Counted from the stretch's first letter, positions 3,174 through 64,000 are shown. The stretch is 64,000 nucleotides of DNA from Deltaproteobacteria bacterium (GCA_007130885.1 SLRQ01000013.1:11004-75003), one strand, 5' to 3'. A program made the numbers and translations. The notes: generated by a model not told the origin, from the letters alone.

Positions 3174-3208
3174 GAGGCACCGTTGTTGTGCGAAATGATT
3201 GCGAGCGG

Positions 3209-21434: not shown

Positions 21435-21501
21435 ACCACATAAGTAAGATAGGGATACGAGCTACTTGGGATCGAATATTTGGCTCGTTAGAAGATTTTG
21501 C

Positions 21502-21945: not shown

Positions 21946-22006
21946 CGAGTCTCTATAGTCGGATTACCTTTCGTTCACCGAGCGGGACACCCTCGATTTC
22001 GATGGT

Positions 22007-22483: not shown

Positions 22484-22840
22484 TTCCACTCCACAAGGAA
22501 AACGGGATTCAGCTCCATCATACCGCAAGACCGGTATGCCGGCGAACAAAGCGTGGAGCGATCGCTTGGGGAACAATCTGAAGGCGGTTATCAGTGATAC
22601 GGTTCGGCTAGATGTGCCCCCCAAAAAGGAACTCGTACCGGGACTAGTTGGCGCACGCCGCCTCTACTCGCTCCGGCCTCCACTCGCCTGGGAACTGTTC
22701 GGCGGCGGATAGCCCTAGCCTCTCACCATCCAAGGGAATTCGAGCCGACCCGGTTTCTAGATAGGGGGTCCGTCAGGGCCTTGTCATATTGATGCTGAAC
22801 TGCTTTATTCGCAAAGCTAACCTTTCAAGGGGTGACGGAT

Positions 22841-26614: not shown

Positions 26615-26701
26615 CCTAATCGCGGAGCAGAAACGCAACACGGTCTCGGGCGGTACTCTTTCGCGGTCATATGACGGTGAAGGATACCTCCTATCTTTGG
26701 T

Positions 26702-26731
26702 AGACTAGCTTTCACTTGCGAGACTAGCTTT
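26702..26731 (+). promoter_or_regulatory. 11-bp direct repeat AGACTAGCTTT x2 (19-bp register) about 15 nt upstream of the 26746 start codon
   Basis: Exact direct repeat read from the sequence. A regulatory function is inferred from its position only. Confidence 0.2.
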
Positions 26732-26745
26732 TCCGGAGGGCTGGA

Positions 26746-47676: not shown

Positions 47677-47893
47677 CGGGGCGGGACCGCCTCTAAAGAA
47701 GTGTCTGGTGGGAAGTTGTTGGGTCGGCGTATTGGTGAACATGCGAGAAATGCACAGGCCCTGACATCACTACTGGTGAAGCAGCCCTGTCTGGACTAAT
47801 ACAAGGACCATGAATGCCGCCACCGGATCTGTCCCCCGCCTGGTGTTTCCCCGAATCAGCTTTTTCGATCTCTCGCGGTCGAGAGGCAAAGAC

Positions 47894-48979
47894 ATGGTTA
47901 AGAGCTGGGTGGTGCTCGCCGTTTTCTTCATGCTCGCCGCTCCGGCGGCCGCCGACTTCAGTCCTGAAGAGCTTGTGGAGGTGGGACGTGCCTACATGGA
48001 GCGCGGCCAAAACGAGGACGCCATCGAACCTCTGCGGATGGCGGTCGAGGCCGACGACGAGAACGTCGAAGCTCATCGTCTTCTGGGTCTGGCGCTGTCC
48101 ATGACCGGGCGTTCCGCGGAGGCGGAACCTCATCTCGCACGCGCCGCCGAGCTCAAACCAAAGAGCTACGAGACGCTCCTTCTTCTCGGAATGGCAAGAG
48201 ATCTCGCCGGCCGCCACGACAAAGCGGCCAAGGCATACGAGGCTGCCACCAAGATCGACGAGGACCGGCCGTGTGCCTGGCATGAGCTTGGAATGACCCA
48301 TCTGTTGCGAGGTGACCCCTCGTCCGCGGTAACGGCTCTCGGACGCGCCGCTGAAGTCTCCGAAAAGCCGAGCGGTTCCCTGCTCGCGGATCTCGGTTAT
48401 GCGTTGTCGGCCGCCGGAGAGTCGGAAAAGGCCCTCGAGGTATTGGGTAGGGCGGTCGAGGTCGAGCCCGGCGATGCCGGAATACGTTTCGTAAAAGGAC
48501 GCGTTCATGCGGCGGCCGGTCAGGTCGACGAGGCGCTGGAGGCTTTCAACGCGGCGCTAGAGAGAAAACCCGACTGCGCAAACTCCGCCCTGCACAAAGG
48601 AATGACGCTGGTAGGGGCGGAACGCTACGAAGAGGCGCTTCCCGCCCTGAAGCTTGCGGTAGCCGAAGGTTCCTCCAGCCCAAGGGCTCGCGCGGCGTTG
48701 GGGCGAGCGCTTGCCGCTACAGGTGATCTCGACGGCGCCGAAGCGAACCTTCGGGCGGCGGTGGCGGCCGAACCACGTCTAGTTGCTTCGTGGCGTGATC
48801 TTGCTCGAGTGTATGAGGCCAAGGAAAAGCGGGACGAGGCTCTTTCAGCGCTCGAGCGCGCCGCAAGCCTCTCTCCGGATAATGAAGACATTTCCGGAGA
48901 GATCCAGCGGCTCAGGGGTTTGGCGGACGAAGACGACCCCCCCAAAGAGGATCTCGAGGACACCCCTGGAGAGGAATAG
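47894..48979 (+). CDS. secreted TPR-repeat protein
   Basis: Signal peptide MVKSWVVLAVFFMLAAPAAA followed by 8-9 TPR-like units and an acidic tail. Confidence 0.7.
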   Translation: MVKSWVVLAVFFMLAAPAAADFSPEELVEVGRAYMERGQNEDAIEPLRMAVEADDENVEAHRLLGLALSMTGRSAEAEPHLARAAELKPKSYETLLLLGMARDLAGRHDKAAKAYEAATKIDEDRPCAWHELGMTHLLRGDPSSAVTALGRAAEVSEKPSGSLLADLGYALSAAGESEKALEVLGRAVEVEPGDAGIRFVKGRVHAAAGQVDEALEAFNAALERKPDCANSALHKGMTLVGAERYEEALPALKLAVAEGSSSPRARAALGRALAATGDLDGAEANLRAAVAAEPRLVASWRDLARVYEAKEKRDEALSALERAASLSPDNEDISGEIQRLRGLADEDDPPKEDLEDTPGEE

Positions 48980-49123
48980 TGGATTGCTACAGCAGTTTGT
49001 GGGGAGCCGGTCTTGATTCGTGGACTCATTGGAATCGGAGTAGGGTATTCGACTCGTTCGGCGCCTCGATGTTTGTTCCCCCGCGCCTACTAACCTAGAA
49101 TGTGTAAGATCTCTGGAGTGCTC

Positions 49124-52100
49124 ATGAAGATTAAGAGCAGGCTCGGGCGACTAATCACCATGATGGCGGTGCTTGCCGCCATAGCGGGCATTGGTTTCAT
49201 TCTATCGCCTGAAGGCGGGGAGCCTTCCCCGTCGACTGGCGATGATTTCCTCGATCAGGTGATGTCACTGACCACCGGGGTCGAGGCCGTGGCGCGCAGA
49301 GGAGGCGCGGGTCAGGGGACTCCTTCGAGCGAGAAGGATGACGGCGAGCACGAGCTCACCTCACTCCGCCTTCTTGGAAGGGCCATGATTTTGGTCAGTG
49401 AGAACTATGTGGATCCAGACCGCATAGATCCAAAGAGGATGCTTTTGGGCTCGCTGGACCACCTCGAGAAGAGAATCCCCGAGGTGTTGGTGGACGATCG
49501 CGACGCCGAGGAGACCGGCGAGGTCCTGCTCACCGTCAATCGTTCTACCACTACCGTCGATGTGAGCGGCATGGAGTCCGTCTTGGAGCTGATTCCGCGG
49601 TTCAGACGGCTCTTCTCGTTCATACAGGACAACCTCGTGTCCACGGAGGACACCCGCCGGATCGAGTATGCCGCGATTAACGGCATGCTCTCCACCTTGG
49701 ATCCCCACTCCAACCTGCTCGATCCCGACCAATACAGCGATATGAAGCTCCATACTCGCGGGGAGTTCGGGGGGCTTGGTTTCGTGGTGTCCATGCGAGA
49801 CGGCCGGCTGACGGTCATGCGTATCATCCCCAACACACCCGCGCATGACGGTGGGGTGAAGCCACGGGACGTGATTACGCGGATAGCGGGCGAGTCCACC
49901 GCCAACATGGATCTTACCGAAGCGGTCAGCCGTCTACGCGGCAAGCCGGGAACGAAGATAGAGTTCTTTGTCGACAGGCCTGGTGAGAAGCAGCAAAAAC
50001 AGTTCGAACTCGAGCGCTCCATAATAGAGATTGAGTCGATAGACCCGGCGCGGCTTCTGGCTGACGATGTGGGCTATATACGGGTCACCAACTTCCAGGG
50101 GCACACCACTCGTGATTTGCGCAAGGCCTTCGAAAAACTTCAGGAGGAGGCTGAGGATGGCATGAAGGGCCTCATCCTGGACCTTCGCGCCAACCCCGGG
50201 GGGCTTCTGGAGCAGGCTATTCAGGTGGCGGACCTTTTCTTGGATAGGGGCACCATCGTCTCGACGGTCGGCATGAGCAACAGGCTGCGCGAACGAAACA
50301 CGGCGACTCGTAGAGGAACGCTGAAGAGAGTTCCCTTGGTGGTGTTGGTGAGTAATACCTCGGCCTCCGCCTCCGAGATCGTGAGCGGAGCGGTGCGCTA
50401 CCTCGACCGTGGCCTGGTCATCGGCAACTCCACCTTCGGTAAGGGCTCGGTGCAGGTCCTATATGATCTGGTGGATGACTCCGCTCTGAAGCTTACGATC
50501 GCGCAGTACCTCACCACCGATGACATATCGATTCAGGATCTGGGCATAGTCCCCGACATCGAGCTCCTACCCTCGCTGGTGTCCGAAAGGCGGGTCATGG
50601 TCTTTGCTCCGCGGCGCTCGCTTCGGGAGGTGGATCTAGAAGACCAGGGGGGCCCCGACGTTCCCACGGGTCCGGCTCCCGGCCTCGATCCTTTCCGTAC
50701 GAAGTTGCCCTCTGACGAAGGACAGGTCGAGAACGGAAAGGAGCCGCTGGAAAGCCTCATTTTCTTGCGTGATGACGTGCCGGAGGACGAGGAGATCGAC
50801 GAGTTCGAAGAGCCGGAGTGGGAGGAGGACTTCCACGTTCATTTCGCCCGAAGAATACTGGCGGAAGCGGGCGCCACTACGCGCGAAGAGATGCTTGAGC
50901 GGTCGAAGCCTGTAATAGAAGCTAGCCGCGAGAGTGAGCGCGGGCGCATTTACGAAGCAGTCAGCGAGCTTGGGGTGGACTGGAGCTCCGCTCCGGAAGG
51001 GAGCGAGCTGAACGAGGTCGATCTCGAGGCCGAGCTGTCCTTCGACGGACCATCGATGGGCGGGGAGGAGACCGGTCTTGTGCTGTCGTTGCGAAACGCC
51101 GGCGAAAAGCCGCTTTATCGGGTTCGGGCTTGGACCGAGTCGGCTAGTCCTCCCGTGGTTCGCTACAGCAGGCTATTCGATCGTCTCGAGTTCTTGTTTG
51201 GAAAGCTGGAGCCCGGCGAGACCCGAACGTGGCGCGTGCCTGTGGAGCTGCCGAGGGATCTGACGGCCCGGCGCGAGAAGCTGGATATTCGTGTGGAAGG
51301 TGACGGCGCGGGCATGCTTGCGAATATTCCGGCCATACTGGATGTGGACGAACGTCCCAGCCCCGTGCTCGCCTTTCATTGGCAGGTAAACGATGCCGGG
51401 CAACCCAAGGGCGATGGCCGGCTGAGCGTGGGCGAGGATGCCATGCTCGATGTTTTCTTGCGCAACATCGGTGAGGGTGATGCCTCCGATGTGGTCGTGA
51501 CCGTAAGGCATCTAGAGGACAAAAAGGTCAACATAAACCGCGGTCGCCACCGGATCGGAGAGCTGAAGGCCGGTAATGAGGGCAAGGGCCGCATGTCGCT
51601 CCAGGTGGACGAGGGGTTCGAGGGCGATGAAGTGCGAATCAAGGTAACCGCGTATGATCTCGAGTCGGCAAGGGTTGTCTCCGACCAGGTGACGGTTCCG
51701 CTATCAAGGGAGCCCATTGAGGTCGCGGAGGCTTCCGGCACCGCTAGGCTGCGCGAGTCTACCGAAATCCTGGCTTGGGCGGGTCGAGATGCGGAGCTCT
51801 TGGCGCGAGTCACCTTGGGTACGGTGTTGCCCGTCAAGGCTCGTGTAGGCTCTTTCTACCGAGTGGCTTGGGGCGGGGACCGCGAAGGTTTCGTGCACAA
51901 AGACTCCGTTCGGCTTCTGACCGAGGAGATAGAAGGTCCGGATGGAGATATCGTGGCCGTTTACAGTCATCGTCCGCCGAGGATCGTGATTGCCGGCGAT
52001 AGGGCTCCGGTGACGGAACAAGAGGAGTTCATCCTGTCCGGTATGGCCGAAGGTGAGTCCTCGCTCCGTGACGTGTATATCTTCGTCAACAATGACAAGC

Positions 52101-52330
52101 TCTTCTTCCGTGCTTCGCGGGCGGCGGATTTGGACTCCGATAATGGAAACGAGAGTGATGGCCCCGAGGAAAGTGACGAGCCGCCTGTCACGGATACTCG
52201 CGTTCCCTTCGAGGTGAGCGTTCCTCTCGAAAAAGGGGCCAACAGCATCATAGTATTTGCACGCAAGAATGACGATTTGATGGCCAGCCGCCGCCTGGTG
52301 GTGTTCAGGGATGCCCCTGAAAAGCCCTGA
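49124..52330 (+). CDS. S41 C-terminal processing peptidase (PDZ + S41 core) with ~550-aa C-terminal extension
   Basis: N-terminal membrane anchor. PDZ (GLGFVVSMRDGRLTVMRIIPNTPA). S41 catalytic motifs SNTSASASEIVSGA (Ser) and TFGKGSVQ (Lys). A long beta-rich extension follows. GGAG RBS upstream of ATG 49124. Confidence 0.75.
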   Translation: MKIKSRLGRLITMMAVLAAIAGIGFILSPEGGEPSPSTGDDFLDQVMSLTTGVEAVARRGGAGQGTPSSEKDDGEHELTSLRLLGRAMILVSENYVDPDRIDPKRMLLGSLDHLEKRIPEVLVDDRDAEETGEVLLTVNRSTTTVDVSGMESVLELIPRFRRLFSFIQDNLVSTEDTRRIEYAAINGMLSTLDPHSNLLDPDQYSDMKLHTRGEFGGLGFVVSMRDGRLTVMRIIPNTPAHDGGVKPRDVITRIAGESTANMDLTEAVSRLRGKPGTKIEFFVDRPGEKQQKQFELERSIIEIESIDPARLLADDVGYIRVTNFQGHTTRDLRKAFEKLQEEAEDGMKGLILDLRANPGGLLEQAIQVADLFLDRGTIVSTVGMSNRLRERNTATRRGTLKRVPLVVLVSNTSASASEIVSGAVRYLDRGLVIGNSTFGKGSVQVLYDLVDDSALKLTIAQYLTTDDISIQDLGIVPDIELLPSLVSERRVMVFAPRRSLREVDLEDQGGPDVPTGPAPGLDPFRTKLPSDEGQVENGKEPLESLIFLRDDVPEDEEIDEFEEPEWEEDFHVHFARRILAEAGATTREEMLERSKPVIEASRESERGRIYEAVSELGVDWSSAPEGSELNEVDLEAELSFDGPSMGGEETGLVLSLRNAGEKPLYRVRAWTESASPPVVRYSRLFDRLEFLFGKLEPGETRTWRVPVELPRDLTARREKLDIRVEGDGAGMLANIPAILDVDERPSPVLAFHWQVNDAGQPKGDGRLSVGEDAMLDVFLRNIGEGDASDVVVTVRHLEDKKVNINRGRHRIGELKAGNEGKGRMSLQVDEGFEGDEVRIKVTAYDLESARVVSDQVTVPLSREPIEVAEASGTARLRESTEILAWAGRDAELLARVTLGTVLPVKARVGSFYRVAWGGDREGFVHKDSVRLLTEEIEGPDGDIVAVYSHRPPRIVIAGDRAPVTEQEEFILSGMAEGESSLRDVYIFVNNDKLFFRASRAADLDSDNGNESDGPEESDEPPVTDTRVPFEVSVPLEKGANSIIVFARKNDDLMASRRLVVFRDAPEKP

Positions 52331-52365: not shown

Positions 52366-53949
52366 ATGAACCTTCGTGTTGTCCTCCTGGCCGCTCTTCT
52401 TGCAGGCTGCGGAATCGCGGTCGTTGCTTACAAGGTAAAGGCGCTGGGTTACGATCTGGTCCCGCGCGCCACCGAGGATAGGTGGTCGGTGCAGATCCAG
52501 CTTCGCTTCCGAAGCGTGGGGGAAGACGCGGGCGCTCGCGTCTTCTTGCCGGCGGACCGTCTACCGCGGCAGCGTATTTACGATGAAAGGATCCTGGCCG
52601 AGGGTGCCCGCTTCGATGTGAGTACCCACGGCGACAACCGCATCGGCACCATCTCCGGTCGTCCCGGTACCTCGGGAACTCTATCTTATCGGTTCGCCGT
52701 TCATCTTCGCGCGGAGGATGAGGAGCTTCCGTCGGAAAGGGATGTAAGTGAGGTGCCGCCGGATCCCGACTCGATATGGCTGGCACCCGAGCGTCACATA
52801 CAGTCCGATGACTCTCGGGTGCTGGAGCGTTTGCGAGAGATACGCTCCCCCGATGCCGGCCCCGTTCGAACAGTGCGTTACATCTTCGACTATGTGCGCG
52901 ACGAGGTAGTGGGCGTCGATCTGGGTGATGGGGCCGATGCTCTTACCGTGCTCCAGCTCGAACGCGGTGGGCCTTTAGGTAAGGCGAGGCTCGCTGTTGC
53001 GTTGGCTCGCGCGGGTGGACTGCCCGCTCGGGTCGTGGCCGGCATTGACATGGAGGACGGCACCAGGAACGAGCTTCGGCACTGGGCGGAGGTCTTGCTG
53101 GGGGAGCAGTGGCATGCGCTGGACGTCGTCTCCGGCCATATCGGTCGCCTGCCTCGAGAAAGGTTGATTTTGTACGAGGGCGACGGCCCGGCGGTGGATA
53201 CCAGGGGCCTTGAAGAAGTATCTTTCCAGATAGATGCTCTCAAGGAAGAGGTTTCGCAGCACCGCTTGTATCAGAGGCGGGTGCTCGAATCCGATACCGT
53301 CCTCGACCGCGTCAGTCTGTACACCTTGCCGGTCAACACTCAGATGACCCTGCGCGTCTTGCTGCTCATTCCGTTTGGAGCGCTGATAGTATCTCTCTTT
53401 CGGAACATGGTCGGAGTGCCGACCTTCGGCACCTTCATGCCGGTCCTGCTTGCGCTTGCCTTCCTGGAGACCGGTCTCGCTCTAGGAGTGGCTCTTCTGC
53501 TCATAATCATAGGTGTGGGGTGGCTCTTTCGGGGCTTGCTGGACTGGTTGCAGCTATTGATGATCCCGCGCCTGTCTTTCCTGCTCACCGTGGTCATCGT
53601 AATCATAGTAGGCATAAGCTTGTTGAGCGACCGGGCCGGGATGACCGCGGGCCTGTACGCCGCCGCGTTCCCGATAGTCATCATAACCGCCACCATCGAG
53701 CGTTTCTCGGTGATGATCGTCGAGGAAGGACCAAGAAACGCCGCCAATACGACCGTGGGCACGCTGCTGGTTGCTCTTGCTTGTTACGGCATGCTCATAA
53801 GCGACGTCTTACAGCGAACAGTGCTGGCTTTTCCCGAGCTGCTTCTGCCGGTGCTGGGAGTGTTGCTTCTCATAGGCCGTTACACCGGCTACCGGCTGTC
53901 CGAGTGGGCCAGGTTCTCGGCTTTCAATAGGGGTTTTGGTGACGCGTGA
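52366..53949 (+). CDS. Cys-less (inactive) transglutaminase-like periplasmic domain fused to a C-terminal polytopic (about 7-TM) membrane domain
   Basis: N-terminal anchor/lipobox-like LLAGCG. TGase-like core KARLAVALARAGGLPARVVAGI...RHWAEV...WHALD keeps His and Asp, but no Cys is present at the nucleophile position. Residues ~330-527 are strongly hydrophobic and form multiple TM helices. Confidence 0.7.
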   Translation: MNLRVVLLAALLAGCGIAVVAYKVKALGYDLVPRATEDRWSVQIQLRFRSVGEDAGARVFLPADRLPRQRIYDERILAEGARFDVSTHGDNRIGTISGRPGTSGTLSYRFAVHLRAEDEELPSERDVSEVPPDPDSIWLAPERHIQSDDSRVLERLREIRSPDAGPVRTVRYIFDYVRDEVVGVDLGDGADALTVLQLERGGPLGKARLAVALARAGGLPARVVAGIDMEDGTRNELRHWAEVLLGEQWHALDVVSGHIGRLPRERLILYEGDGPAVDTRGLEEVSFQIDALKEEVSQHRLYQRRVLESDTVLDRVSLYTLPVNTQMTLRVLLLIPFGALIVSLFRNMVGVPTFGTFMPVLLALAFLETGLALGVALLLIIIGVGWLFRGLLDWLQLLMIPRLSFLLTVVIVIIVGISLLSDRAGMTAGLYAAAFPIVIITATIERFSVMIVEEGPRNAANTTVGTLLVALACYGMLISDVLQRTVLAFPELLLPVLGVLLLIGRYTGYRLSEWARFSAFNRGFGDA

Positions 53950-54923
53950 TGGTTTTCGGCCGTTTCAAGACCTACCGAAGCTTCGGAGTCCTCGGCATCA
54001 ATCGGCGCAACGCCGATCTGATCCTCGGATGCAATCCCCGCCGCCTCTTTCCTCTTGTGGACGACAAGCTTGCGACCAAGTCACTCTGCGAAGCCCACGG
54101 GATAAGAACCCCCGCCCTTTACGGAACAGTGAGCGCCCACCACGAGCTGCGTGCTCTCGAAGCTATGTTGGGGGACAGAAGGGATCTGGTCGTAAAGCCC
54201 GCCAAGGGGGCGATGGGCAACGGCGTTCTGGTAATAACTGATCGGAAGGGTGATCGTTTCATTAGGGCCGGCGGGGCTTCGCTGGGCATCAAGGATCTTC
54301 GGTACCACATAAGCAGCATTCTCTCCGGCCTCTACTCGCTCGGTGGACGAACCGACAAGGCAATCATCGAGGCGAGGGTGCGGGCTCATTCGGTGTTCGA
54401 TGACTTGTCCCTCGGTGTCCCCGACTGCCGGATCATCGTCTTTCGCGGCGTTCCCGTGATGTCCATGCTCCGGCTGCCTACACGGATGAGCGGCGGAAGG
54501 GCCAACCTTCATCAGGGAGCCATAGCCGTGGGGGTCGACGTGGGAACAGGCGTGACTCATCGTGCGGTGCACCTCGACCGAGTGGTGGCGCGGCACCCGG
54601 ATACGGGCAGGTCCGTCAACGGCATTCATCTTCCTCACTGGGACGAGATACTTCACATCGCCGCGGTCAGCGCCGACATGACGGGCCTGGGCTATCTCGG
54701 CGTGGACGTCGTAATAGACGCCGAGGGGGGGCCCATGCTGCTGGAGCTGAATGCCAGGCCGGGCCTCTCCATACAAATAGCCAACGGGGCCGGCCTCACT
54801 CCACGGCTCGACATGCTCGAGGGCCGGGACGTATCCAGCCTTTCCCCCGAGGACCGAGCTTCCTTGGCCAAATCCATGTTCGGCTCTTCGGAGCATCGGG
54901 AGGATGAGTCTCTTGTCGCTTGA
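53949..54923 (+). CDS. alpha-L-glutamate ligase-like protein (RimK-type ATP-grasp)
   Basis: N-terminus GVLGINRRNADLILGCNPRRLFPLVDDKLATK...VVKPAKGAMGNGVLVI matches the conserved opening of the alpha-L-glutamate-ligase-related ATP-grasp family. ATG overlaps the upstream stop (tgATG). Confidence 0.8.
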   Translation: MVFGRFKTYRSFGVLGINRRNADLILGCNPRRLFPLVDDKLATKSLCEAHGIRTPALYGTVSAHHELRALEAMLGDRRDLVVKPAKGAMGNGVLVITDRKGDRFIRAGGASLGIKDLRYHISSILSGLYSLGGRTDKAIIEARVRAHSVFDDLSLGVPDCRIIVFRGVPVMSMLRLPTRMSGGRANLHQGAIAVGVDVGTGVTHRAVHLDRVVARHPDTGRSVNGIHLPHWDEILHIAAVSADMTGLGYLGVDVVIDAEGGPMLLELNARPGLSIQIANGAGLTPRLDMLEGRDVSSLSPEDRASLAKSMFGSSEHREDESLVA

Positions 54924-55887
54924 ACCAAAGCCGCGCTCATCTTGGATGCGGGGGCGTATCTCCGTTTGGGTGGCCGTGCTCTCATCAGCGGCTGTCGCCT
55001 GTTCCTTGGAGCGAGATTCGTCAAATGAGATGGGCGAAGTGCTCGCGGGCGTGGAGGTGGTAAGGGAGTTGGTCTTCATCGTGCGGGTGGAGGGAAAGGG
55101 TGAGGACGTTCGTTTGGAGATCCCGCTTCCGCTTGGCGGAGACAACGTGAAGATCTTCGAGGAGGAGCTGCGCCTACGAGGGTTTTCGTTCGAGGAGAGG
55201 GTGGAGGACGGGATCCGTACCGCGATCCTGGAGTATCCCGTGCTCGAGGGCCGGCGCCGTTTCACCTACAAGGCCGTCATAGGCCTCCAAAGCATGGAGC
55301 ACGAAGTCATTTCTCCGGAGCCTAAAGCCATTGTGAACCGGGATCTGCGCGTGTACACGCTTCCCACCCCCAGGATGCAGTCCCGAAGCCCCCTGGTTCG
55401 AGAGCGGCTGATAGAGCATGTGGAGCCCGGGCTCGAGGCCGGAGACGAGGATATAGTGCGCATGATATTCGGGCTCGTGGCGGGTCGGTTCGAGCGGCGA
55501 ACCTCGGATGGTACCGGCAATGTGCTCCGTGCACTGCGAGAGGAGCAGGCAAGCGACCGCGGCCTCGACAGGCTGCTGATCACCTTCATGCGCGCCGCTG
55601 GTATTCCGGCGCGACCGGTGGCCGGTTTTCATCTTCGCACCGAGGGCGGTCGCAAGTTCGAGCGCTGGACCGAGATACACGTAGGTGAGGGATGGGTGCC
55701 CATGAGTGCCCCAAAGGGTTGGTACGGCGTTCAGCCTCCGGACTATTTGCGGCTGTACCATGGCGAGCGAAGATTCATCGAGCGAGAGGGTGTGGAGCGC
55801 TTGACCTTCAAGGTCCTGGTCAGCGAGCCGAACGAGGAGGAAAGTGGAAAGCAGCACCTCTTTAAAGCAGAAGAGGAGGTCCAGTGA
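54904..55887 (+). CDS. secreted Cys-less transglutaminase-like protein
   Basis: Signal peptide (RISVWVAVLSSAAVACS). TGase-like core LDRLLITFMRAAGIPARPVAGF...WTEIHVGEGW lacks the nucleophile Cys. Overlaps the ATP-grasp 3' end by 20 nt. Confidence 0.55.
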   Translation: MSLLSLEPKPRSSWMRGRISVWVAVLSSAAVACSLERDSSNEMGEVLAGVEVVRELVFIVRVEGKGEDVRLEIPLPLGGDNVKIFEEELRLRGFSFEERVEDGIRTAILEYPVLEGRRRFTYKAVIGLQSMEHEVISPEPKAIVNRDLRVYTLPTPRMQSRSPLVRERLIEHVEPGLEAGDEDIVRMIFGLVAGRFERRTSDGTGNVLRALREEQASDRGLDRLLITFMRAAGIPARPVAGFHLRTEGGRKFERWTEIHVGEGWVPMSAPKGWYGVQPPDYLRLYHGERRFIEREGVERLTFKVLVSEPNEEESGKQHLFKAEEEVQ

Positions 55888-58043
55888 TGCAGGGTGGTCC
55901 CGCTTTCTTTTCCGGTGCCGTGAAGCAGTTGCTTGCGGCGCTCTTCGTATCGGCTCTAACTGCGACGGCCGTTGTTCGGCCTGCCGCGGCTTTCGAGAAC
56001 GCTCCGGATTTGTATATGGTGGCCGGACGTGATTGGCGGGTGGTTCTTCCCGTTTCGGTCCTTGCGGCCGCGGGAGAGAAGAGCGCCCCCGTACTGCTTC
56101 CGGAGCTGGGTAAGGGACGCTGGTTCGATCATTTCATCAGCCGCTACGAGCCGACAAGACCTGCGTTGATCGTCCCGACCGATGGCGACGGCAAGCCCAC
56201 CGCGTACCTCCCTTGGGAGGAAGGTCCAACATTTCCCGAGCCGGAGGGCGGTCCCATCAAGCTCGTGGATCTGTCGGCGCGGGTTAGTGAGCTGCCGCTC
56301 TTGTTGGCCGAGGAGATCGTACCCTTATCCTCGGTTGATCCCGGCCCGCCGGTGTGGATTGTCTCCGACGCCGATTACCACACCGGCCTTCTGGCGGCGG
56401 TGGCGGCGGGGGCCGAGCGGGGCATACTGGTCCCGGTCGCCGCTGATAGGGAAGACATAACGAGAGCGCTTTCGTTCGCAAGAGCCCGCCGTGCTCCGGT
56501 CCGCCTGGCCCTGTCCCATTCGGAGGAGTCTTCACCGGCCTCGTCCGCCCTGAAAGCAGCCGTGTTGGAGGCAGCGCTCGTCGGTGATGTCCCCGTGGAG
56601 GTAGTGAAAGGAGTCGATGCGTTGACCGGCCGGGCCGCCGCCGGCTTCGCCGGTCTTCGTTCGGCTGAACTCCGAGGTCACGTTGTGTTCACAAACCCAG
56701 CGGACGTAGAGGGCCGGTTCAGCCCGCCGCATTTGTCCTTGCTGGCTCCTCTGTTCGCGATATCGAGACAGGCTTCGCTGGTGCTGACGGACGGCGATCC
56801 CGAAAAGACGGAGCGTAAGCTGGAGGCCTTCGAGGAAGAGCACGGATCTGTCAGTCACGTAACGCTCATCGGTGACTACCTTACGCTGCGAATGCGCGAA
56901 ATGCTCGACCCCGACGATGTTCACGAGGGCGTAGATGAACCCCGCCGTTTCAAGGTGCCGTCGCTTGCCGGAGTGATCGACCTCCAGCCCGCGGAGTATG
57001 CCACGGGGAGGCTCGCCGCCGAGGATGTGCATGATCTCTCTTTGCAGATAGGCCGCATAATGGCGCCGAGACGAGCGCTGGGTTCAAAGAAGCGACCGGC
57101 GTTGATGCTCGCCAATGCCGATGAGATCTTCGTCATCGCGGAGCTCGTTTCGATGGCCACCGTAAAAGAGATGCGGAACACCGGTTGGGACGTGACCGCC
57201 TACTATGGGGATGAGATCGACCGGGATCTCATTTTCGACGAGATGCCGGGTAAGCAAGTAATCATTTGGACCGGTCATCCCAGGGATCTGACCGTCGATT
57301 ACGACATAGGAGTCGTCGATCAGATGCTGGACTCCTCCTTGGTATTCCTGCAGGGCTGCTACACCTTGGATCGCAACGATCCGTATGTGCTGGTCCAGCA
57401 GGGAGCAGGCGGCATCATAGGTACATACATGGCGGTCTACAGCGCTTCAGGCTCGGCTTTTGCCAAGACCGTCCTGGACGCGATGCTCTACTACGGGGCG
57501 GACCAGGGAGAAGCCATGGTTCATGCCCGTAACTACCAGCTCGCCTATGTCGAGATGAAGAGGCAGCGCGGGCACAGGGATTGGCGAAAGACCTGGCGCG
57601 CCGCTCTTTCATTCGATCTTTGGGGCGACCCCACGTTGCGTTCGGTGCAGCCGAGACGCGAGCCTGAAAAGCCTCCGGTGCGCCTGAAGCGTGAGGGCGA
57701 GGTCCTGAGGTTTCTGGTGCCCGCGGAGCGCTACTCGGGCCTTGCGGCGGGCAGGTACACTCTGGAGTCGGTTGCCGGCGGTCAGCTCGGAGCCATCTAC
57801 ACCCGCAGCGACGATTGGGGGGACGAGCGGCGATCGCAGCCCTTCTACTTTGGTTGGGTTGATTTGCCCGAGCATGACGAGCCGCCGGAGCTTGAAAGTA
57901 AGGTGCCCGATGACGAGTGGGTCACCGTTTGGGCTCCCAAGCGGCAAAGGCTTTATATCCTCGTCCACAACCGTGCCGAGAGAGCCGTCGGGCGGGAGGG
58001 GCTCGTTTTCAGGTTGAAGGGCGCCGCCTCCGAAGAGCCATGA
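55887..58043 (+). CDS. secreted 719-aa protein with a caspase/gingipain-like His...Cys arrangement (putative CD-clan-like peptidase or pseudo-peptidase)
   Basis: Signal peptide. GAGGAGG RBS. Hydrophobic strand followed by His (QVIIWTGHPRD) and, 27 residues later, a hydrophobic strand followed by Cys (SLVFLQGCYT). The functional call is an inference. The CDS itself is well supported. Confidence 0.5.
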   Translation: MQGGPAFFSGAVKQLLAALFVSALTATAVVRPAAAFENAPDLYMVAGRDWRVVLPVSVLAAAGEKSAPVLLPELGKGRWFDHFISRYEPTRPALIVPTDGDGKPTAYLPWEEGPTFPEPEGGPIKLVDLSARVSELPLLLAEEIVPLSSVDPGPPVWIVSDADYHTGLLAAVAAGAERGILVPVAADREDITRALSFARARRAPVRLALSHSEESSPASSALKAAVLEAALVGDVPVEVVKGVDALTGRAAAGFAGLRSAELRGHVVFTNPADVEGRFSPPHLSLLAPLFAISRQASLVLTDGDPEKTERKLEAFEEEHGSVSHVTLIGDYLTLRMREMLDPDDVHEGVDEPRRFKVPSLAGVIDLQPAEYATGRLAAEDVHDLSLQIGRIMAPRRALGSKKRPALMLANADEIFVIAELVSMATVKEMRNTGWDVTAYYGDEIDRDLIFDEMPGKQVIIWTGHPRDLTVDYDIGVVDQMLDSSLVFLQGCYTLDRNDPYVLVQQGAGGIIGTYMAVYSASGSAFAKTVLDAMLYYGADQGEAMVHARNYQLAYVEMKRQRGHRDWRKTWRAALSFDLWGDPTLRSVQPRREPEKPPVRLKREGEVLRFLVPAERYSGLAAGRYTLESVAGGQLGAIYTRSDDWGDERRSQPFYFGWVDLPEHDEPPELESKVPDDEWVTVWAPKRQRLYILVHNRAERAVGREGLVFRLKGAASEEP

Positions 58044-58132
58044 AGAGGATGTCTGAGGTATCCCCTCTATCGTCCGAGTCGCTTGGCAGACTTCGAGAAG
58101 AAACGGCCTTTTGCGACACCCTCTATTGCTAG
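58040..58132 (+). CDS. possible 30-codon ORF (MKRMSEVSPLSSESLGRLREETAFCDTLYC) overlapping the upstream stop (ATGA)
   Basis: Translational-coupling geometry and a position directly after the ATP-grasp/TGase module. No other support. Confidence 0.15.
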   Translation: MKRMSEVSPLSSESLGRLREETAFCDTLYC

Positions 58133-58587
58133 ACCGGCGGGTACCTGCGAAGCAACGGACCACCTGGCTGGCGTGTCCTTGGTAGAGGCTACATGCGACT
58201 CCAAGACTACGTCATCGGATATTTGGTCGCTAGAGAAGTGACTAATCCTGAGTACCGGGGCGGATGTGTTTTCAGGTAGTTAGCGGGATAAGGTCGAGCC
58301 ATGCCAGGTCTCTCGACCCTTGGCGGCCTTGCCATGGAGAACCCTTTTCGTGACAAGCGGGTTGAAGGTTCCGCAACATGAGGACAAACTCCTATGTCAC
58401 TAGTAGTTGCGGAAAAGGGGGGTGCCGTGTGCGGTCGATACCACTTTAGATGTTTGGACGCGCGCGGCGAGGCTACCGGGCCGCTCGAGTTAGTGGGTAT
58501 CGATACGTGCGCTTACGACACCGGCTGTAGCATCGTTCCGTCCATCCGGATTGCCCGCATTATCGCGTGAGGCTTGTGAGGACCGTT

Positions 58588-61500
58588 ATGGAAGCAGAGA
58601 CTCGTTTCTACTACTCGCCTTTGGGAAGCTGCCGCGCCTTGGTCGCGGTTACTTGTTCGCTGGTGCTGCTTTTCGGCGGATGCAAGTGCTCGGACGAGCC
58701 GGCCGAGGACGAGGTGCCCGGTGAGGAGATATCGGAGGTGACCTACGGCGCGGCCGGGGAAGTGATGCGGGTGCCGGTCGAGCCTGGTCGGCCACCTCGG
58801 GCGGCGCCGGACGCGCGGGTGGTGCTGCTCATGGACCTGGACTCCAGCGGCACGTTCGATGAGGCCGAAGAGCATGTGGCGGAGCTGGACGAGGACGGTC
58901 GTTTCGAGGTGTTCACGGAGAGGATCGAGTATGAAGGTGGAGCGCCTCGCGTGAGAGCGCAGCTAGTAGCGATACTCGATGGTCATGCGACGGCGTACAG
59001 GCGAGTTGATCTCGAGGCGGACACTCGGCCGTGGATAGACGCGACGCTGTTCGAGTACGAGGGGATGGAGCTTGGAGAGCGGACAAGCCTTGCCGACGGA
59101 TCGCTGACGATTACGGGCCTGCCGGAGGGAATACAGAAGGCATGGGGGCGGGTGCTGCACCCGGTGCTTGATGCGGAAGGTGTTTCCGGAGGGGGGCAAG
59201 CGGTGTCCGGGGTATCGCTTTCGTTTGGTGTGGTGGGAGCCGTGCGTCTGGTTGGGGCTCAAGGAGAGGCTGTGAGGCAGCTCGAGGAGCCTGTGACGTT
59301 GCGCATGGAGCTCGTGGAGGAGACGTGGGGAGCGCTGTCGGCGATAGCGCCGGGCCGCGGCATCGACCCAAGTGATGACTTCATAGATTTAGGCGACGAC
59401 TTCATCGACCCAAGTGACGACTTCATAGATCCGAGCGACGACTTTTATGATGTAGCAGCAAGCGTGCCGCTTTTCGCGTTCAGCGAGAGCGATGGCGCAT
59501 GGTCGTTCCAGGCCGTGGGAAGGCTCGAGACGGCCGGGGGCGCCGCCCTTACGTACGGGCAGCTACAGGATGTTTGGAGCGGCGAGTTCGATGGGCGACT
59601 GTTCGTGCGGGGTGATGTGGAGCATTTCAGTCAGTGGGGCTATGGCTGGCCTGTTGGAGAGACGTGCATCGAGGGGGTGCTCGAGGAGGTCACTGGAGAT
59701 GACGACACGAAGCAGCCCGCCGCCGGAGTGACGGTAACCGGCCGCGGAGTGGGCAGCGACGAGAGAAGCGGTCCCGTGGTGACGGACTCGGAGGGCCGTT
59801 TCTGCCTTCACGCGAGGCCGAGCGCGGGAGTGGGAGGCGGAGCCAACGTTTTGCGGCTGCATGCCAGGCTGGAAGATGGAGATGTGCGCCTTGGAGAGGT
59901 GAAGGTGGAAATGCCGGAAGACGGTCCGGTGGAGTGCGGCGAGGAAGGCTGTCAGGATGCGGGCGTGTTCTTGCTGGAAAGGCCCGATGGTGAGGAGGAG
60001 GCGAGAGTCGAGCCATGCGGGATACCGGTGAGGGTGCTGCTTCCTGGTGAAGGAGGACTTTGGGAGAGCCTGCGACCCGAGACGGCCGCCGGCGCTAGCG
60101 TGAAGGCGCATGTTCCATCATCGAGGATGCACGCGGTGAAGGAGCTTTGCGGGGCCGGTGGTGATGTTGACGACTGTCTTGTTTCGGAGGCGGATGAGGA
60201 AGGCGAAGCCGTCGTCACGGTGCCGAGGGGAGAGGAGAGAGTCGAGATAACGGGAAGGCTGCTGCACGAGGCCGGCGATGGTGGAGCACAATTCTACGAT
60301 TACCGCGGGCGAGTGGTGCTGAGCGAGCCGGTTTGTGTGGAAGGCGAGGAGGAAGAGCAGGTGGAGCTGGAGCTTCGCTTGCGTAGGGGCGACGTAGAGC
60401 GAGTGGATGTGTGGGTGGACATAGAAGATGAAGGGGGAGAGGTTCCGGCGCCCATCATAGGGTGGAACTCGGTGATACCGTACGAGGCGGGGGAGGAGCC
60501 CGGCGAGCTTTCGGCCGAGCGAGTGACCATCTACTCGGGCGAAGGGGATGAGGTGCTGTGGGAGGTCGTGGCGCGTGACGATGTCGAAGGTGGAGCGGAG
60601 CCCGGAATGGCGTCTCCTTTGGAGGTGCGTGATTACGGCGACGACGACCCCGTGCTGCGCCAGCCGGTGCCGCCCGGCATGGATGCGTTGACGACGCCCG
60701 GGATGCATCCGGACGCTTATGTCGTGGTGCAGGTGCGGGGCGAGAGACTCGGCGTTCTGTGGGAAGGCCGGGGCGCCGAGGATCTTCACGCGGGAGTGGA
60801 GGTCGACCCTGAAGAAGCCAATAGTTTGAAGTATGTGTCCGGGGATAATCAGACCGGGAACCGGGGTGAGCCTCTCACCGAGCCGCTCCGGGTTCTGGTA
60901 GAGGATGCACACGGTAACCCCGTTGAAGGCCACGAGGTAACCTTTAGCTTGGGAATGAACCCGCCCGGAGATGATGCTTCGCTCAACCCTATGACTACGC
61001 ATTCAAGCGCGGATGGCCTGGCGAGCACGCAGCTCACGCTAGGTAATGCGGGTGGTGCATATCACGTTGAAGCAAGTGGTGCGGGGATTGACGGGTTGGT
61101 CAAGTTCGAGGCGACCGCGTGCGATCTCGGTACGGGGTGGCATCCGGATTATCAGGCCGAGTGTTACGATGAGGTGGAGGTACTTTGCGATTCTACGGGC
61201 TTGCCTGCAGAGAACTCGAGCGTGGAATACGATGAGCGGGTAACCGTGACATGGAGTGAGGAGGACGGCTGGAGTGTCCCCGAACCATGTGTCTGGTCGT
61301 GCGATCCGGGCTATCACGAGCATGAGCAAGGTGACGCAATCGAGTGCGTGGAGTGCATCGTCGATGGTCACTGTACACCGAACCTCCTTTGCTTGAACAA
61401 CACTTGCGTCGAGTGCATCGTTCACGACGATTGCCCAAATGAAGGTTTGTGCTACTCGAACGAGTGCATCGACAACCCGTGCTTTCCGAACCCATGCATC

Positions 61501-63585: not shown

Positions 63586-64000
63586 ATGCATCGCATGCGG
63601 CTATTCTTTTCGATGGCCGGCCTAATCGGCCTCCTTGCTGTCCCAAGCAACTCCGCGGCCCAACACATGGACCTGGAGCTGTGGAGGCTTGGTAACCCGA
63701 GGCCAATCGAACTCTCGGATGGAACCTCGGTGTCGCCGTATTTGGAGGCCGACGACCGTTTCCGGCTGTTGATGGTGGATCTTGGTCTGGCAATGCACCC
63801 TACGCCGACTCATCCCGCCAATACTCTTGGACGCGCGGGTACCGCCTTCGAGTTCTCGTTGCGCTTGCCGCAAATCCACCCGGGCGCGACCGTACAGCCG
63901 GGTGACAGGGTGGAGGAAGGCGACTGTCCGCCCGGTAATCCACAGTGCAGGATCTGGGTGATAAGGGGGACCGCGGAAGGCTACGCTCCCCAGCGCCCTC
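63586..64000 (+). CDS. secreted hypothetical protein, 3' end beyond the window
   Basis: ATG 63586, signal peptide MHRMRLFFSMAGLIGLLAVPSNSAAQ, open frame to the window end. Confidence 0.4.
   Translation, partial: MHRMRLFFSMAGLIGLLAVPSNSAAQHMDLELWRLGNPRPIELSDGTSVSPYLEADDRFRLLMVDLGLAMHPTPTHPANTLGRAGTAFEFSLRLPQIHPGATVQPGDRVEEGDCPPGNPQCRIWVIRGTAEGYAPQRP

What the first reader, a model, noticed from the sequence alone, without database searches (positions are those of the whole stretch)
52366..58132. Expanded RimK-like ATP-grasp / inactive-transglutaminase membrane module lacking the usual aspartyl protease
Comparative genomics has described a conserved association between an alpha-L-glutamate-ligase-like ATP-grasp enzyme and a membrane protein that fuses an inactive (Cys-less) transglutaminase to a 7-TM domain, usually with a small retropepsin-like protease. 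The function of that system is unknown. Here the ATP-grasp gene (53949-54923) is tightly overlapped on both sides. Upstream is the TGase-7TM fusion (52366-53949). Downstream is a second, standalone secreted Cys-less TGase-like protein (54904-55887), a 719-aa secreted protein with a His/Cys arrangement (55887-58043), and a 30-codon ORF with ATGA overlap (58040-58132). No retropepsin-like gene is present. An S41 protease sits directly upstream instead. Two catalytically dead TGase folds, an amidoligase and a possible thiol peptidase, all extracytoplasmic or membrane-bound, suggest a peptide or cell-surface modification or sensing system of a composition I have not seen described.
Basis: partly seen in the sequence, partly recalled or inferred. 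Interest (0 to 1): 0.8.

Follow-up and report, generated by a model that had tools for sequence, protein, structure and literature searches.

The report
Rlo envelope operon with gingipain-like protease
This is a rare, conserved version of the bacterial Rlo cell-envelope stress operon in which the usual small aspartic protease is replaced by a large gingipain-type cysteine protease plus an extra copy of the membrane protein's outer domain, which gives an independent handle on a system whose chemistry is still unknown.

Summary
Four translationally coupled + strand genes (52366-58043) encode an RloB-like protein (dead transglutaminase domain fused to 7 TM helices), an RloC-like ATP-grasp enzyme (TIGR02291), a Cys-less lipoprotein paralog of the RloB ectodomain ("TGs"), and a secreted 718-aa protein. 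The last has a gingipain-fold (C25) catalytic domain with an invariant His464/Cys491 dyad, after a CWB2-like N-terminal part.

There, a secreted retropepsin, RloA, cleaves polyglutamate in vitro, and loss of rloB or rloC suppresses loss of the proteases.

No RloA-like gene lies in the window or in any related locus. The order RloB-RloC-TGs-C25 recurs in every related locus with enough DNA, about 17 distinct ones. These come from Myxococcota, Binatia and Desulfobacterota-type MAGs and from the cultured Vulgatibacter incomptus. A further variant puts the C25-like gene directly upstream of rloB, where rloA sits in canonical operons. The C25-linked ATP-grasp proteins form one clade.

Best reading: non-orthologous replacement of RloA by a clan CD cysteine peptidase. 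The S41 protease is a lineage-specific neighbour. The 30-codon ORF is probably spurious. This is a new variant of a known kind, of moderate to high interest.

The parts
52366..53949 (+). RloB-like membrane protein. It has an N-terminal TM helix (aa 3-21), a periplasmic inactive transglutaminase-like ectodomain (about aa 23-320) and 7 TM helices (aa 327-504).
   Evidence: Pfam hits are PF14402 (7e-72), PF01841 (6e-13) and PF14400 (1e-5). NCBIfam RloB model NF052267 aligns over the full length at 243 bits, below its 900-bit cut-off. It is 33% identical over the full length to a canonical RloB. At the catalytic positions the Cys is replaced (about Pro203), while His239 and Asp253 are kept.
53949..54923 (+). 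RloC-like cytoplasmic ATP-grasp enzyme (alpha-L-glutamate-ligase-like). An alternative GTG start lies at 53946.
   Evidence: It scores 402 bits on TIGR02291 (cut-off 314) and 2.5e-84 on PF14397. It is 53% identical to the ATP-grasp protein of a canonical RloA-RloB-RloC locus. The E-x-N metal-binding motif (LLELNARPG) and the other residues invariant in alignment A2 are kept. It has no TM segment.
54904..55887 (+). TGs: a standalone exported TG-fold protein, probably a lipoprotein. It is a paralog of the RloB ectodomain and has lost the whole Cys-His-Asp triad.
55887..58043 (+). Secreted C25-like (gingipain-fold) cysteine peptidase. Domains are a signal peptide (aa 1-36), a CWB2-like alpha/beta part (about aa 40-260), a C25 catalytic domain (about aa 262-592) and a C-terminal beta-rich domain (about aa 597-712). 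An alternative GTG start lies at 55884.
57276..57359 (+). Catalytic dyad of the C25-like domain: the His464 codon (57276-57278) and the Cys491 codon (57357-57359).
   Evidence: The motifs W-x-G-H464-x-x-D-L-T and L-Q-G-C491-Y-T-L-D-R are invariant in 9 homologs at 31-63% identity. The GH and LQ[GST]C motifs are also kept in a 12-sequence sample of more distant family members. Cys491 is the only Cys in the 718-aa protein. Codons were checked.
49100..52330 (+). S41 C-terminal processing peptidase of the MXAN_5808 family, ending 35 nt upstream of the RloB-like gene. It is a lineage-specific accessory or neighbour, not part of the core.
   Evidence: It scores 932 bits on TIGR03900 and hits PF03572 and PDZ domains. 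It lies directly upstream in 10 Myxococcota-type loci. It is absent from the Binatia-type loci and from L114.
58040..58132 (+). 30-codon ORF with an ATGA overlap. It is probably not a gene.
   Evidence: The sequence is shown. There is no counterpart in homologous loci, where the next gene starts 60-150 nt after the C25-like stop. It was not called on the public copy of this contig.
58567..63390 (+). 1607-aa secreted protein (Laminin_G_3, Big_1 and choice-of-anchor L domains). It is inserted into the ancestral synteny and is not part of the module.
   Evidence: Domain hits are. In related loci the C25-like gene is followed directly by a roughly 300-aa gene. The window homolog of that gene lies only at 63586 onwards.
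63586..64000 (+). N-terminal part, cut by the window end, of a roughly 300-aa secreted protein. Its homologs end in a C-terminal Phe, which suggests an outer-membrane barrel; this is unproven.
   Evidence: tblastn gives 45-53% identity to the genes immediately downstream of the C25-like gene in L001, L003 and L004.

Best explanation
This is a variant Rlo (rloBC-type) cell-envelope system. In it, the periplasmic peptidase role played by the retropepsin RloA in Gammaproteobacteria is taken by an unrelated gingipain-fold (clan CD, family C25-like) cysteine peptidase. A lipoprotein that is a duplicated, fully degenerate copy of the RloB ectodomain assists it.

Proposed working, step by step:
1. 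The cytoplasmic RloC-like ATP-grasp enzyme uses ATP to ligate L-glutamate, RimK-like, onto a peptide, protein or envelope precursor, or into free oligo- or poly-alpha-glutamate. This step is inferred from family membership only.
2. The RloB-like protein is translationally coupled to RloC. It has 8 TM helices and hands that product, or a signal about it, across the inner membrane. Its Cys-less TG-fold ectodomain acts as a binding module, not a catalyst. The loss of the nucleophile is shown. The role is inferred.
3. In the periplasm, the C25-like peptidase cleaves or trims the glutamate-rich product, so that it does not accumulate. It is Sec-exported and has an intact His464/Cys491 dyad. It may be held at the wall or at an anionic polymer by its CWB2-like part. 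The fold and dyad are shown. The substrate is inferred from RloA's polyglutamate cleavage and from rloB/rloC deletions suppressing the rloA triple mutant in P. aeruginosa.
4. TGs, the soluble or lipid-anchored ectodomain paralog, presents substrate to the peptidase or regulates it. This is inferred.
5. In the Myxococcota lineage, an S41 C-terminal processing peptidase encoded just upstream may add a second trimming activity. This is speculative.
For: Membership of the two core genes in the Rlo families:
- The ATP-grasp protein scores 402 bits on TIGR02291. It is 53% identical to the ATP-grasp protein of a canonical PF05618(RimB-like)-RloB-RloC locus.
- The RloB-like protein is 33% identical over its full length to the RloB of that locus.

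Linkage:
- Every C25-like locus with enough DNA carries RloB-RloC-TGs-C25 in that order with overlapping genes. That is about 17 distinct loci, including cultured Vulgatibacter incomptus CP012332.
- A second arrangement, C25-RloB-RloC-MFS, puts the C25-like gene directly upstream of rloB, the position rloA holds in canonical operons, with a 4-nt overlap and no TGs.
- The 19 C25-linked ATP-grasp sequences form one clade with no canonical member inside.

Mutual exclusion in the DNA held:
- About 50 of 80 canonical loci had enough upstream DNA to judge. All but one of these (L075) carry RloA, and none of the 80 carries C25 or TGs.
- No C25-type locus, and not the 64-kb window, carries an RloA-like ORF.

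Functional precedent: RloA is secreted and cleaves polyglutamate in vitro, and deletion of rloB or rloC suppresses the triple protease mutant (PMC12239564).
Against: - No biochemical activity is known for any RloC or RloB. Polyglutamate is only an in-vitro substrate of RloA.
- I could not inspect the S1 pocket of the C25-like model, because no coordinates were available. Specificity for acidic residues is therefore untested.
- A retropepsin could be encoded elsewhere in these genomes. P. aeruginosa has two unlinked RloA paralogs, and only 64 kb, or at most 10 kb of flank per locus, was examined.
- Clan CD enzymes of this family can be transpeptidases (PorU) rather than hydrolases.
- The tree is a simple NJ tree without support values.
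Confidence: 0.6

Rival explanations
1. Same system, but the C25-like protein is a transpeptidase (sortase-like) rather than a hydrolase. It would cleave an exported RloBC product or a substrate protein and attach it covalently to a cell-wall or outer-membrane acceptor. The CWB2-like part would position it at the wall, and TGs would serve as an acceptor- or donor-binding adaptor.
Confidence: 0.17
2. The S41 C-terminal processing peptidase encoded upstream, not the C25-like protein, is the functional stand-in for RloA. It would trim C-terminal Glu tails added by the ATP-grasp enzyme. The C25-like protein and TGs would then do something else in the envelope.
For: S41 lies 35-250 nt upstream on the same strand in 10 loci across two Myxococcota subclades. 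S41 enzymes recognise C-termini through a PDZ domain. RimK-type ligases extend C-termini; this is established knowledge for RimK and ribosomal protein S6.
Against: S41 is missing from all Binatia-type loci (L009, L016-L018, L020, L023, L026, L027) and from the L114 variant, whereas the C25-like gene is always there. TIGR03900 is, to my knowledge, a family found generally in Myxococcales, so the adjacency may be inherited synteny. There is a real intergenic gap rather than the overlaps seen inside the core.
Confidence: 0.08
3. The cluster is a peptide natural-product (RiPP or graspetide-like) or peptide-signal maturation locus. The 30-codon ORF, or another small ORF, would be the precursor; the ATP-grasp enzyme would modify it; the Cys peptidase would remove a leader; and the 7TM protein would export it.
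For: The combination of an ATP-grasp enzyme, a peptidase, a membrane protein and a small overlapping ORF superficially fits.
Against: The ATP-grasp protein is a TIGR02291 RimK relative, 47-54% identical to the ATP-grasp enzymes of the canonical loci sampled. The small ORF is not conserved or called in any homologous locus. No conserved small flanking gene of 70 aa or more was found. The peptidase is periplasmic and carries a wall-binding-like module.
Confidence: 0.03
4. The adjacency is fortuitous synteny. The C25-like protein and TGs would be ordinary secreted proteins, for example predatory or nutritional proteases, with no functional tie to RloBC.
For: Myxococcota encode many secreted proteases. 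The window is rich in large secreted proteins.
Against: The linkage holds across several phylum-level lineages, in two different gene orders and with 1-4 nt gene overlaps. The ATP-grasp tree groups the linked systems together. The exhaustive search found only 191 relatives at E<=1e-30 among 1.84 billion cluster representatives. All three extra contexts sampled from it again show, or in L113 suggest, an RloB-like gene next door.
Confidence: 0.03

Closest known systems
rloABC operon of Pseudomonas aeruginosa (Lormand et al., mBio 2025, PMC12239564), and the comparative-genomic association of ATP-grasp, inactive TG-7TM and pepsin-like protease genes.
   Same: RloB (N-terminal TM helix, dead TG ectodomain, 7TM) and RloC (TIGR02291 ATP-grasp) are homologous over their full lengths. 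They are 33% and 53% identical to a canonical locus. They keep the same order, rloB then rloC, with coupled genes. An exported peptidase is encoded in the operon.
   Different: The peptidase is not a roughly 160-aa retropepsin (PF05618). It is a 718-aa gingipain-fold cysteine peptidase with a CWB2-like part and a C-terminal beta-rich domain. Here it is encoded downstream rather than upstream. An extra lipoprotein paralog of the RloB ectodomain is present. The hosts are Myxococcota, Binatia and Desulfobacterota-type bacteria rather than Proteobacteria, where the paper reports 96% of RloB hits.
RimK/RimB (with or without RimA) ribosomal protein S6 glutamylation system
   Same: It pairs an ATP-grasp alpha-L-glutamate ligase relative with a peptidase that removes Glu residues. 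The logic is ligase versus trimming peptidase.
   Different: RimK and RimB are cytoplasmic and act on ribosomal protein S6. There is no membrane protein and no TG fold. Against the RimK models the window ATP-grasp protein gets only partial, sub-threshold matches.
Gingipains RgpB and Kgp, and PorU (MEROPS family C25, clan CD) of Porphyromonas gingivalis
   Different: Structure-based identity is only 12-16%, and there is no detectable sequence match to any PDB chain. I saw no sign of a gingipain-type prodomain or a T9SS C-terminal domain. There is a CWB2-like N-terminal part instead. The genomic context is entirely different, and the specificity is unknown.
CWB2 (cell wall binding 2) triads of Clostridioides difficile surface proteins (Cwp6, Cwp8, SlpA HMW subunit)
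   Different: There is no significant Pfam CW_binding_2 hit in the window protein. The host is diderm. The ligand is unknown. In C. difficile the ligand is the anionic polymer PSII, which is my own knowledge and was not tested.
Poly-gamma-glutamate capsule systems (CapBCAE/PgsBCA plus CapD/PgdS) of Bacillus. This is a functional analogy only.
   Same: A cytoplasm-facing amide ligase, membrane components and an extracytoplasmic enzyme that cleaves or anchors a glutamate polymer.
   Different: There is no homology: a Mur-ligase-type synthetase and a GGT-family CapD, with gamma rather than alpha linkage. No polymer has been demonstrated for any Rlo system.

Membership tests
Rlo system (rloABC, P. 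aeruginosa type) | An RloC-type ATP-grasp enzyme of the alpha-L-glutamate-ligase-like family (TIGR02291 / PF14397) | tested here: met
   It scores 402 bits against a cut-off of 314, and PF14397 gives 2.5e-84. It is 53% identical to the ATP-grasp protein of a canonical locus.
Rlo system (rloABC, P. aeruginosa type) | An RloB-type protein: an inactive (Cys-less) transglutaminase ectodomain fused to 7 TM helices, encoded immediately upstream of rloC | tested here: met
   PF14402 gives 7e-72, with PF01841 and PF14400 also hit. The alignment to NF052267 covers the full length, but at 243 bits it is below the 900-bit exception-level cut-off. There is no Cys outside the TM segments. It is 33% identical to a canonical RloB.
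Rlo system (rloABC, P. aeruginosa type) | A secreted retropepsin-like aspartic peptidase RloA (PF05618, DTG motif) in the operon | tested here: not met
   phmmer --max with a canonical RloA found nothing in any stop-to-stop frame of the window or of the 32 loci then held. The loci fetched later were screened at E<=1e-4 or E<=1e-3. The gene is present in all but one of the roughly 50 canonical metagenome loci that had enough upstream DNA. The rest of the genome was not available.
Rlo system (rloABC, P. aeruginosa type) | Genetic behaviour: loss of the peptidase is deleterious, and loss of rloB or rloC suppresses it | not testable with these tools
   This needs genetics, for example in Vulgatibacter incomptus DSM 27710 or by cross-complementation in P. 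aeruginosa.
Peptidase family C25 (gingipain-like), clan CD | A caspase-like alpha/beta catalytic fold with the two-subdomain gingipain arrangement | tested here: met
Peptidase family C25 (gingipain-like), clan CD | A catalytic His followed by a catalytic Cys on adjacent strand ends (His-Gly ... x-Cys order) | tested here: met
   G463-H464 and Q489-G490-C491 are invariant in 9 homologs. The GH and LQ[GST]C motifs are kept in a 12-sequence sample of the wider family, and Q[GSA]C occurs in 138 of 151 top relatives. Their spatial juxtaposition could not be inspected, because no coordinates were available.
Peptidase family C25 (gingipain-like), clan CD | Demonstrated peptidase activity and P1 specificity | not testable with these tools
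   This needs an enzyme assay. S1 pocket residues could not be mapped, because the profile finds no PDB sequence match.
Active transglutaminase-like cysteine peptidases and transglutaminases (PF01841 with a Cys-His-Asp triad) | A nucleophile Cys in the G-x-C motif about 15 residues before the G-I-P-x-R motif | tested here: not met
   The position holds Pro, Asp, Glu or Asn in the RloB-like proteins and Asp, Pro or Arg in TGs, across about 35 sequences. There is no Cys at all in either ectodomain. Placement of the motif relative to active enzymes relies on the human TG2 motif recalled from memory and on the Pfam match end-points.
Active transglutaminase-like cysteine peptidases and transglutaminases (PF01841 with a Cys-His-Asp triad) | The His and Asp of the triad | tested here: not met
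   In TGs the His position varies (Arg254 in the window) and the Asp position is an invariant Ser (Ser268). In the RloB-like proteins the His position is His or Tyr and the Asp is kept (Asp253).
CWB2 (PF04122) cell-wall-binding triad | Three tandem CWB2 repeats detectable by sequence | tested here: inconclusive
Graspetide / RiPP biosynthetic clusters | A conserved precursor peptide gene next to the ATP-grasp gene | tested here: not met
   The 30-codon ORF is not conserved. No conserved flanking ORF of 70 aa or more was found besides S41. ORFs under 70 aa were not systematically compared.
Known anti-phage defence systems (PADLOC-DB) | Any component matching a defence-system model | tested here: not met
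   All five proteins gave zero hits at E<=0.01.

The most novel reading that the evidence does not exclude
RloBC systems make and export an anionic, glutamate-based envelope polymer or a glutamylated envelope component. Any such system must be paired with a dedicated periplasmic processing enzyme. In this lineage that enzyme would be a wall-tethered, gingipain-fold enzyme working with a decoy copy of the RloB ectodomain. It could act as a sortase-like transpeptidase that anchors the product to the wall. That would be a previously unrecognised kind of cell-surface modification pathway in diderm bacteria, and a new biological role for family C25.
Probability: 0.15. Interest if true: 0.85.

Novelty: new variant of a known kind. 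Interest (0 to 1): 0.62.

Why it matters
The Rlo operon affects osmotic tolerance, beta-lactam sensitivity, biofilm formation and cell shape in P. aeruginosa. Tn-seq studies cited in the rlo paper link it to host colonisation and virulence. Yet neither the product of RloC nor the job of RloB is known.

An independent lineage has swapped the retropepsin for an unrelated cysteine peptidase while keeping RloB and RloC. That argues that an extracytoplasmic peptidase is an obligatory partner of RloBC. It fits the picture in which the peptidase removes an RloBC product. The domains added here (a CWB2-like wall or polymer binding part and a free copy of the RloB ectodomain) point to where and on what the system acts.

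The variant also offers practical handles:
- the peptidase has a single Cys, which eases active-site labelling and substrate trapping;
- a soluble RloB-ectodomain paralog could be used for ligand fishing;
- a cultured host with a complete genome, Vulgatibacter incomptus DSM 27710, carries the module.

It also extends family C25 beyond Bacteroidota virulence and T9SS biology.

Tried and rejected
- **PDB sequence searches.** Profile searches with the full C25-like alignment and with the catalytic-domain sub-alignment found no gingipain. I therefore could not map S1 pocket residues. Model coordinates are not exposed to scripts.
- **PDB search with the RloB-like protein.** It gave only an irrelevant weak hit. 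The triad positions rest on the Pfam match end-points, the paralog alignment and the Cys census.
- **Iyer et al. 2009 (PMC3268129).** The paper is not held.
- **AFDB fold library.** It was unavailable.
- **Promoter and terminator scan.** Nothing informative came from it.
- **Rfam and tRNA scans.** Nothing was found in the window.
- **PADLOC.** No hits, so a defence-system reading was dropped.
- **RiPP reading.** Dropped because the 30-codon ORF is not conserved.
- **S41 as the RloA substitute.** Rejected as the primary reading, because S41 is missing from the Binatia-type and L114-type loci.
- **The 750-930-aa group.** I first took these C25-like relatives for an unlinked paralog family, because the L113 context showed a sigma-54 activator. 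Its downstream fragment then proved homologous to an RloB-like N-terminus, so that conclusion was withdrawn. Its linkage rests on one fragment at E 4e-10.
- **First regular expression for the His motif.** It was too strict. An alignment showed GH and LQxC conserved, with a variable insert between them.
- **Locus L075.** It is the one canonical locus without an upstream RloA. It has minus-strand genes upstream of the RloB-like gene and was not pursued.


Full report
**1. What is in the sequence**

On the + strand, 52366-58043 holds four genes with overlapping or abutting ends.
- 52366-53949 encodes a 527-aa protein.
- 53949-54923 encodes a 324-aa protein. The GTGATG junction overlaps the upstream TGA stop.
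- 54904-55887 encodes a 327-aa protein.
- 55887-58043 encodes a 718-aa protein, again with a GTGATG junction.

A 30-codon ORF (58040-58132) overlaps the last stop through ATGA. An S41 peptidase gene (49100-52330) ends 35 nt upstream.

**2. Identity of the parts**

*RloB-like protein.* The 527-aa protein hits 7TM_transglut (7e-72), Transglut_core and Transglut_i_TM. It aligns over its full length to NCBIfam's RloB model, though below that model's strict cut-off. It has one N-terminal TM helix and seven more between residues 327 and 504. Its only cysteines, Cys15 and Cys473, lie in TM segments. The transglutaminase ectodomain therefore cannot have a thiol nucleophile.

*RloC-like ATP-grasp enzyme.* The 324-aa protein scores 402 bits on TIGR02291 (cut-off 314) and 2.5e-84 on ATPgrasp_ST. 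It keeps the E-x-N metal-binding motif and the other residues invariant in the family. It has no signal peptide or TM segment.

The triad positions in TGs are Asp218, Arg254 and Ser268. The Ser is invariant among homologs. The RloB-like proteins lack the Cys but keep His or Tyr and the Asp. The single Cys of TGs, Cys33, sits in a lipobox-like motif that is canonical in most homologs. TGs is thus probably a periplasm-facing lipoprotein.

The secondary structure suggests this layout:
- a CWB2-like beta-alpha part at about residues 40-260;
- the C25 catalytic domain at about 262-592;
- a C-terminal beta-rich domain at about 597-712.

The motifs W-x-G-H464-x-x-D-L-T and L-Q-G-C491-Y-T-L-D-R are invariant in nine homologs that are 31-63% identical to the window protein. 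Cys491 is the only Cys in the protein. The domain is too divergent for any PDB sequence match.

**3. What is already known**

- RloA is a secreted retropepsin that cleaves polyglutamate in vitro.
- RloB is the inactive TG-7TM protein.
- RloC is the ATP-grasp protein.
- The triple rloA1-3 mutant cannot grow in hypo-osmotic medium. It also has biofilm, ampicillin-sensitivity and cell-shape defects.
- Deleting rloB or rloC fully suppresses the growth defect and partly suppresses the others.

The products of RloC and RloB remain unknown.

A canonical locus fetched here, L032, reads RimB-like (PF05618, 158 aa), then RloB (519 aa), then RloC (324 aa). Its RloC is 53% identical and its RloB 33% identical to the window proteins. 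The window proteins are therefore true Rlo-family members.

**4. Is the four-gene arrangement conserved?**

*Rarity.* The C25-like protein has only 10 word-index homologs in 5.8 billion proteins. TGs has only 8, plus two RloB-type proteins.

*Gene order.* All seven contexts looked up show RloB-like, ATP-grasp, TGs, C25-like in that order. A scan of 185,579 species-representative genomes gave 18 loci, from Myxococcota (including Vulgatibacter), Binatia, Desulfurellales and Thermodesulfobacteriota MAGs. Every one with enough upstream DNA has the same order. L028 is frameshifted and has no clear TGs hit.

*A cultured host.* Vulgatibacter incomptus DSM 27710 (CP012332.1) carries S41, RloB, RloC, TGs and a 697-aa protein, with 1-4 nt overlaps within the core.

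*Flanks.* Clustering of flanking ORFs found only one further conserved neighbour, the S41 gene. It is present in 10 Myxococcota-type loci and absent from the Binatia-type loci.

*The window's own neighbourhood.* In the window's closest relatives the C25-like gene is followed by a roughly 300-aa secreted protein. The window homolog of that protein lies at 63586 onwards. The 1607-aa gene (58567-63390) is therefore an insertion into the synteny.

*The small ORF.* The 30-codon ORF has no counterpart in related loci and was not called in the public copy of the contig.

**5. Relation to canonical systems**

*Canonical loci.* A metagenome scan with an ATP-grasp alignment returned 80 loci whose ATP-grasp is 47-54% identical to the window's. 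About 50 of them have enough upstream DNA to judge. All but one of these (L075) carry one or two RloA-like genes, then RloB, then RloC. None of the 80 has TGs or a C25-like gene.

*C25-type loci.* Conversely, no RloA-like ORF occurs in the window or in any C25-type locus.

*Tree.* In an NJ tree of about 97 ATP-grasp sequences, the C25-linked ones form a single clade. It has two subclades, one S41-linked (Myxococcota type) and one Binatia type.

*Family size.* An exhaustive profile search of 1.84 billion cluster representatives found 191 relatives of the C25-like protein at E<=1e-30 and 725 at E<=1e-3.

*A second gene order.*
- One distant full-length member, P0277, lies in a different arrangement: C25-like, RloB, RloC, MFS transporter (L114 and L115).
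- There the C25-like gene overlaps the start of rloB by 4 nt. That is the position rloA holds in canonical operons. No TGs is present.
- The ATP-grasp protein of that locus still falls in the C25-linked clade.
- Two more sampled members are followed by fragments homologous to an RloB-like N-terminus: L116 at E 2e-37 and L113 at E 4e-10.
- In a 12-sequence sample of this wider family, the GH and LQ[GST]C motifs are kept, with a variable insert between them.

**6. Interpretation**

The peptidase partner has been replaced non-orthologously. A secreted clan AA retropepsin in Proteobacteria corresponds to a secreted clan CD gingipain-fold cysteine peptidase in this clade.

By analogy with the P. 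aeruginosa genetics, the likely logic is as follows. RloC builds a glutamate-containing product in the cytoplasm. RloB passes it, or a signal about it, across the membrane and binds it with a dead TG pocket. The periplasmic peptidase trims it.

TGs, a free copy of the RloB ectodomain, would act as an adaptor or regulator. It is dispensable in the L114-type arrangement. The CWB2-like part suggests tethering to the wall or to an anionic polymer.

Shown here:
- the folds;
- the catalytic residues present or lost;
- the predicted localisation signals;
- gene coupling;
- co-conservation in two gene orders;
- mutual exclusion with RloA in the DNA held.

Inferred:
- all of the chemistry;
- the substrate;
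- the direction of the reaction, which could be hydrolysis or PorU-like transpeptidation.

Rival readings are weighed in the Rival explanations section. They are a transpeptidase, S41 as the substitute, a RiPP cluster, and fortuitous synteny.

**7. Novelty and verdict**

Full-text searches for rloB/rloC, inactive transglutaminase with ATP-grasp, and gingipain with RimK, ATP-grasp and 7TM found only the rlo paper, plus screens that hit single genes. None describes a C25-linked variant. NCBIfam has no model for TGs or the C25-like protein.

I rate this a new variant of a known kind. The parent system is known. The peptidase swap, the ectodomain paralog and the CWB2-like part are new. The finding is well supported as an observation, is conserved, and is testable in a cultured organism.

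Main caveats:
- no whole-genome check for unlinked retropepsins;
- no inspection of the active-site pocket;
- an NJ tree without support values;
- most loci come from MAGs.

Noticed in passing
window 58567-63390 (+), with the 523-nt gap 58044-58566: A 1607-aa secreted protein (Laminin_G_3, Big_1 and choice-of-anchor L domains) and a long non-coding gap lie between the C25-like gene and the roughly 300-aa gene that directly follows it in related genomes. This is a lineage-specific insertion into otherwise conserved synteny.
   Followed up: partly
window 63586-64000 (+); L001 7337-8326, L003 12231-13139, L004 12181-13107: A roughly 300-aa secreted protein with no Pfam hit follows the module in the window's closest relatives. 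Its homologs end in a C-terminal Phe, which suggests an outer-membrane beta-barrel. It may be a further clade-specific partner.
   Followed up: partly
L031 (V. incomptus CP012332.1) 2282-4926; L005 1-3025: In the Vulgatibacter-type loci, a GCS2-type glutamate-cysteine ligase gene and a glutathione synthetase gene (another ATP-grasp enzyme) lie just upstream of the S41 gene. Glutamate and thiol metabolism genes thus sit next to a putative glutamate ligase and a cysteine peptidase. This could be coincidence.
   Followed up: no
L114 7640-8971; L115 5279-6610: In the alternative C25-RloB-RloC arrangement, an MFS transporter gene follows the ATP-grasp gene after a 10-nt gap. This hints that a small molecule is moved in connection with the system.
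   Followed up: no
L033, L037, L054, L090, L101 (two tandem copies); L097 (one copy on each side of rloBC): Several canonical metagenome loci carry two RloA-like retropepsin genes. Five have tandem copies upstream of rloB. One has a copy upstream of rloB and another downstream of rloC. This echoes the RloA redundancy reported in P. aeruginosa.
   Followed up: no
proteins P0166-P0288; alignment: A larger group of 750-930-aa C25-like relatives has a long, variable insert between the catalytic His strand and the Cys strand. The insert is roughly 40 to over 250 residues in the aligned sample and is often proline- and acid-rich. That is unusual for clan CD peptidases.
   Followed up: partly
window 6962-9940 (+): A 992-aa protein fuses HMGL-like and PYC_OADA domains (5S/oxaloacetate-decarboxylase-alpha type) to a complete Carboxyl_trans (12S type) domain. 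It lies next to a methylmalonyl-CoA mutase gene (9979-11709). It looks like a fused transcarboxylase.
   Followed up: no
window 15990-29172 (+): A run of very large secreted repeat proteins (InlB B-repeat with PA14; CHB_HEX_C_1 with Fn3_assoc repeats) lies here. It coincides with lower G+C (0.53-0.56 at 18-22 kb and 26-30 kb) and a strong GC-skew spike (0.27 at 16-18 kb).
   Followed up: no
window 47810-48979 (+) and 44332-47676 (+): A TPR protein gene lies upstream of the S41 gene. It is syntenic in the window's three closest relatives (L002, L003, L004). A 1114-aa beta-propeller (PF09826) protein gene precedes it in the window.
   Followed up: partly
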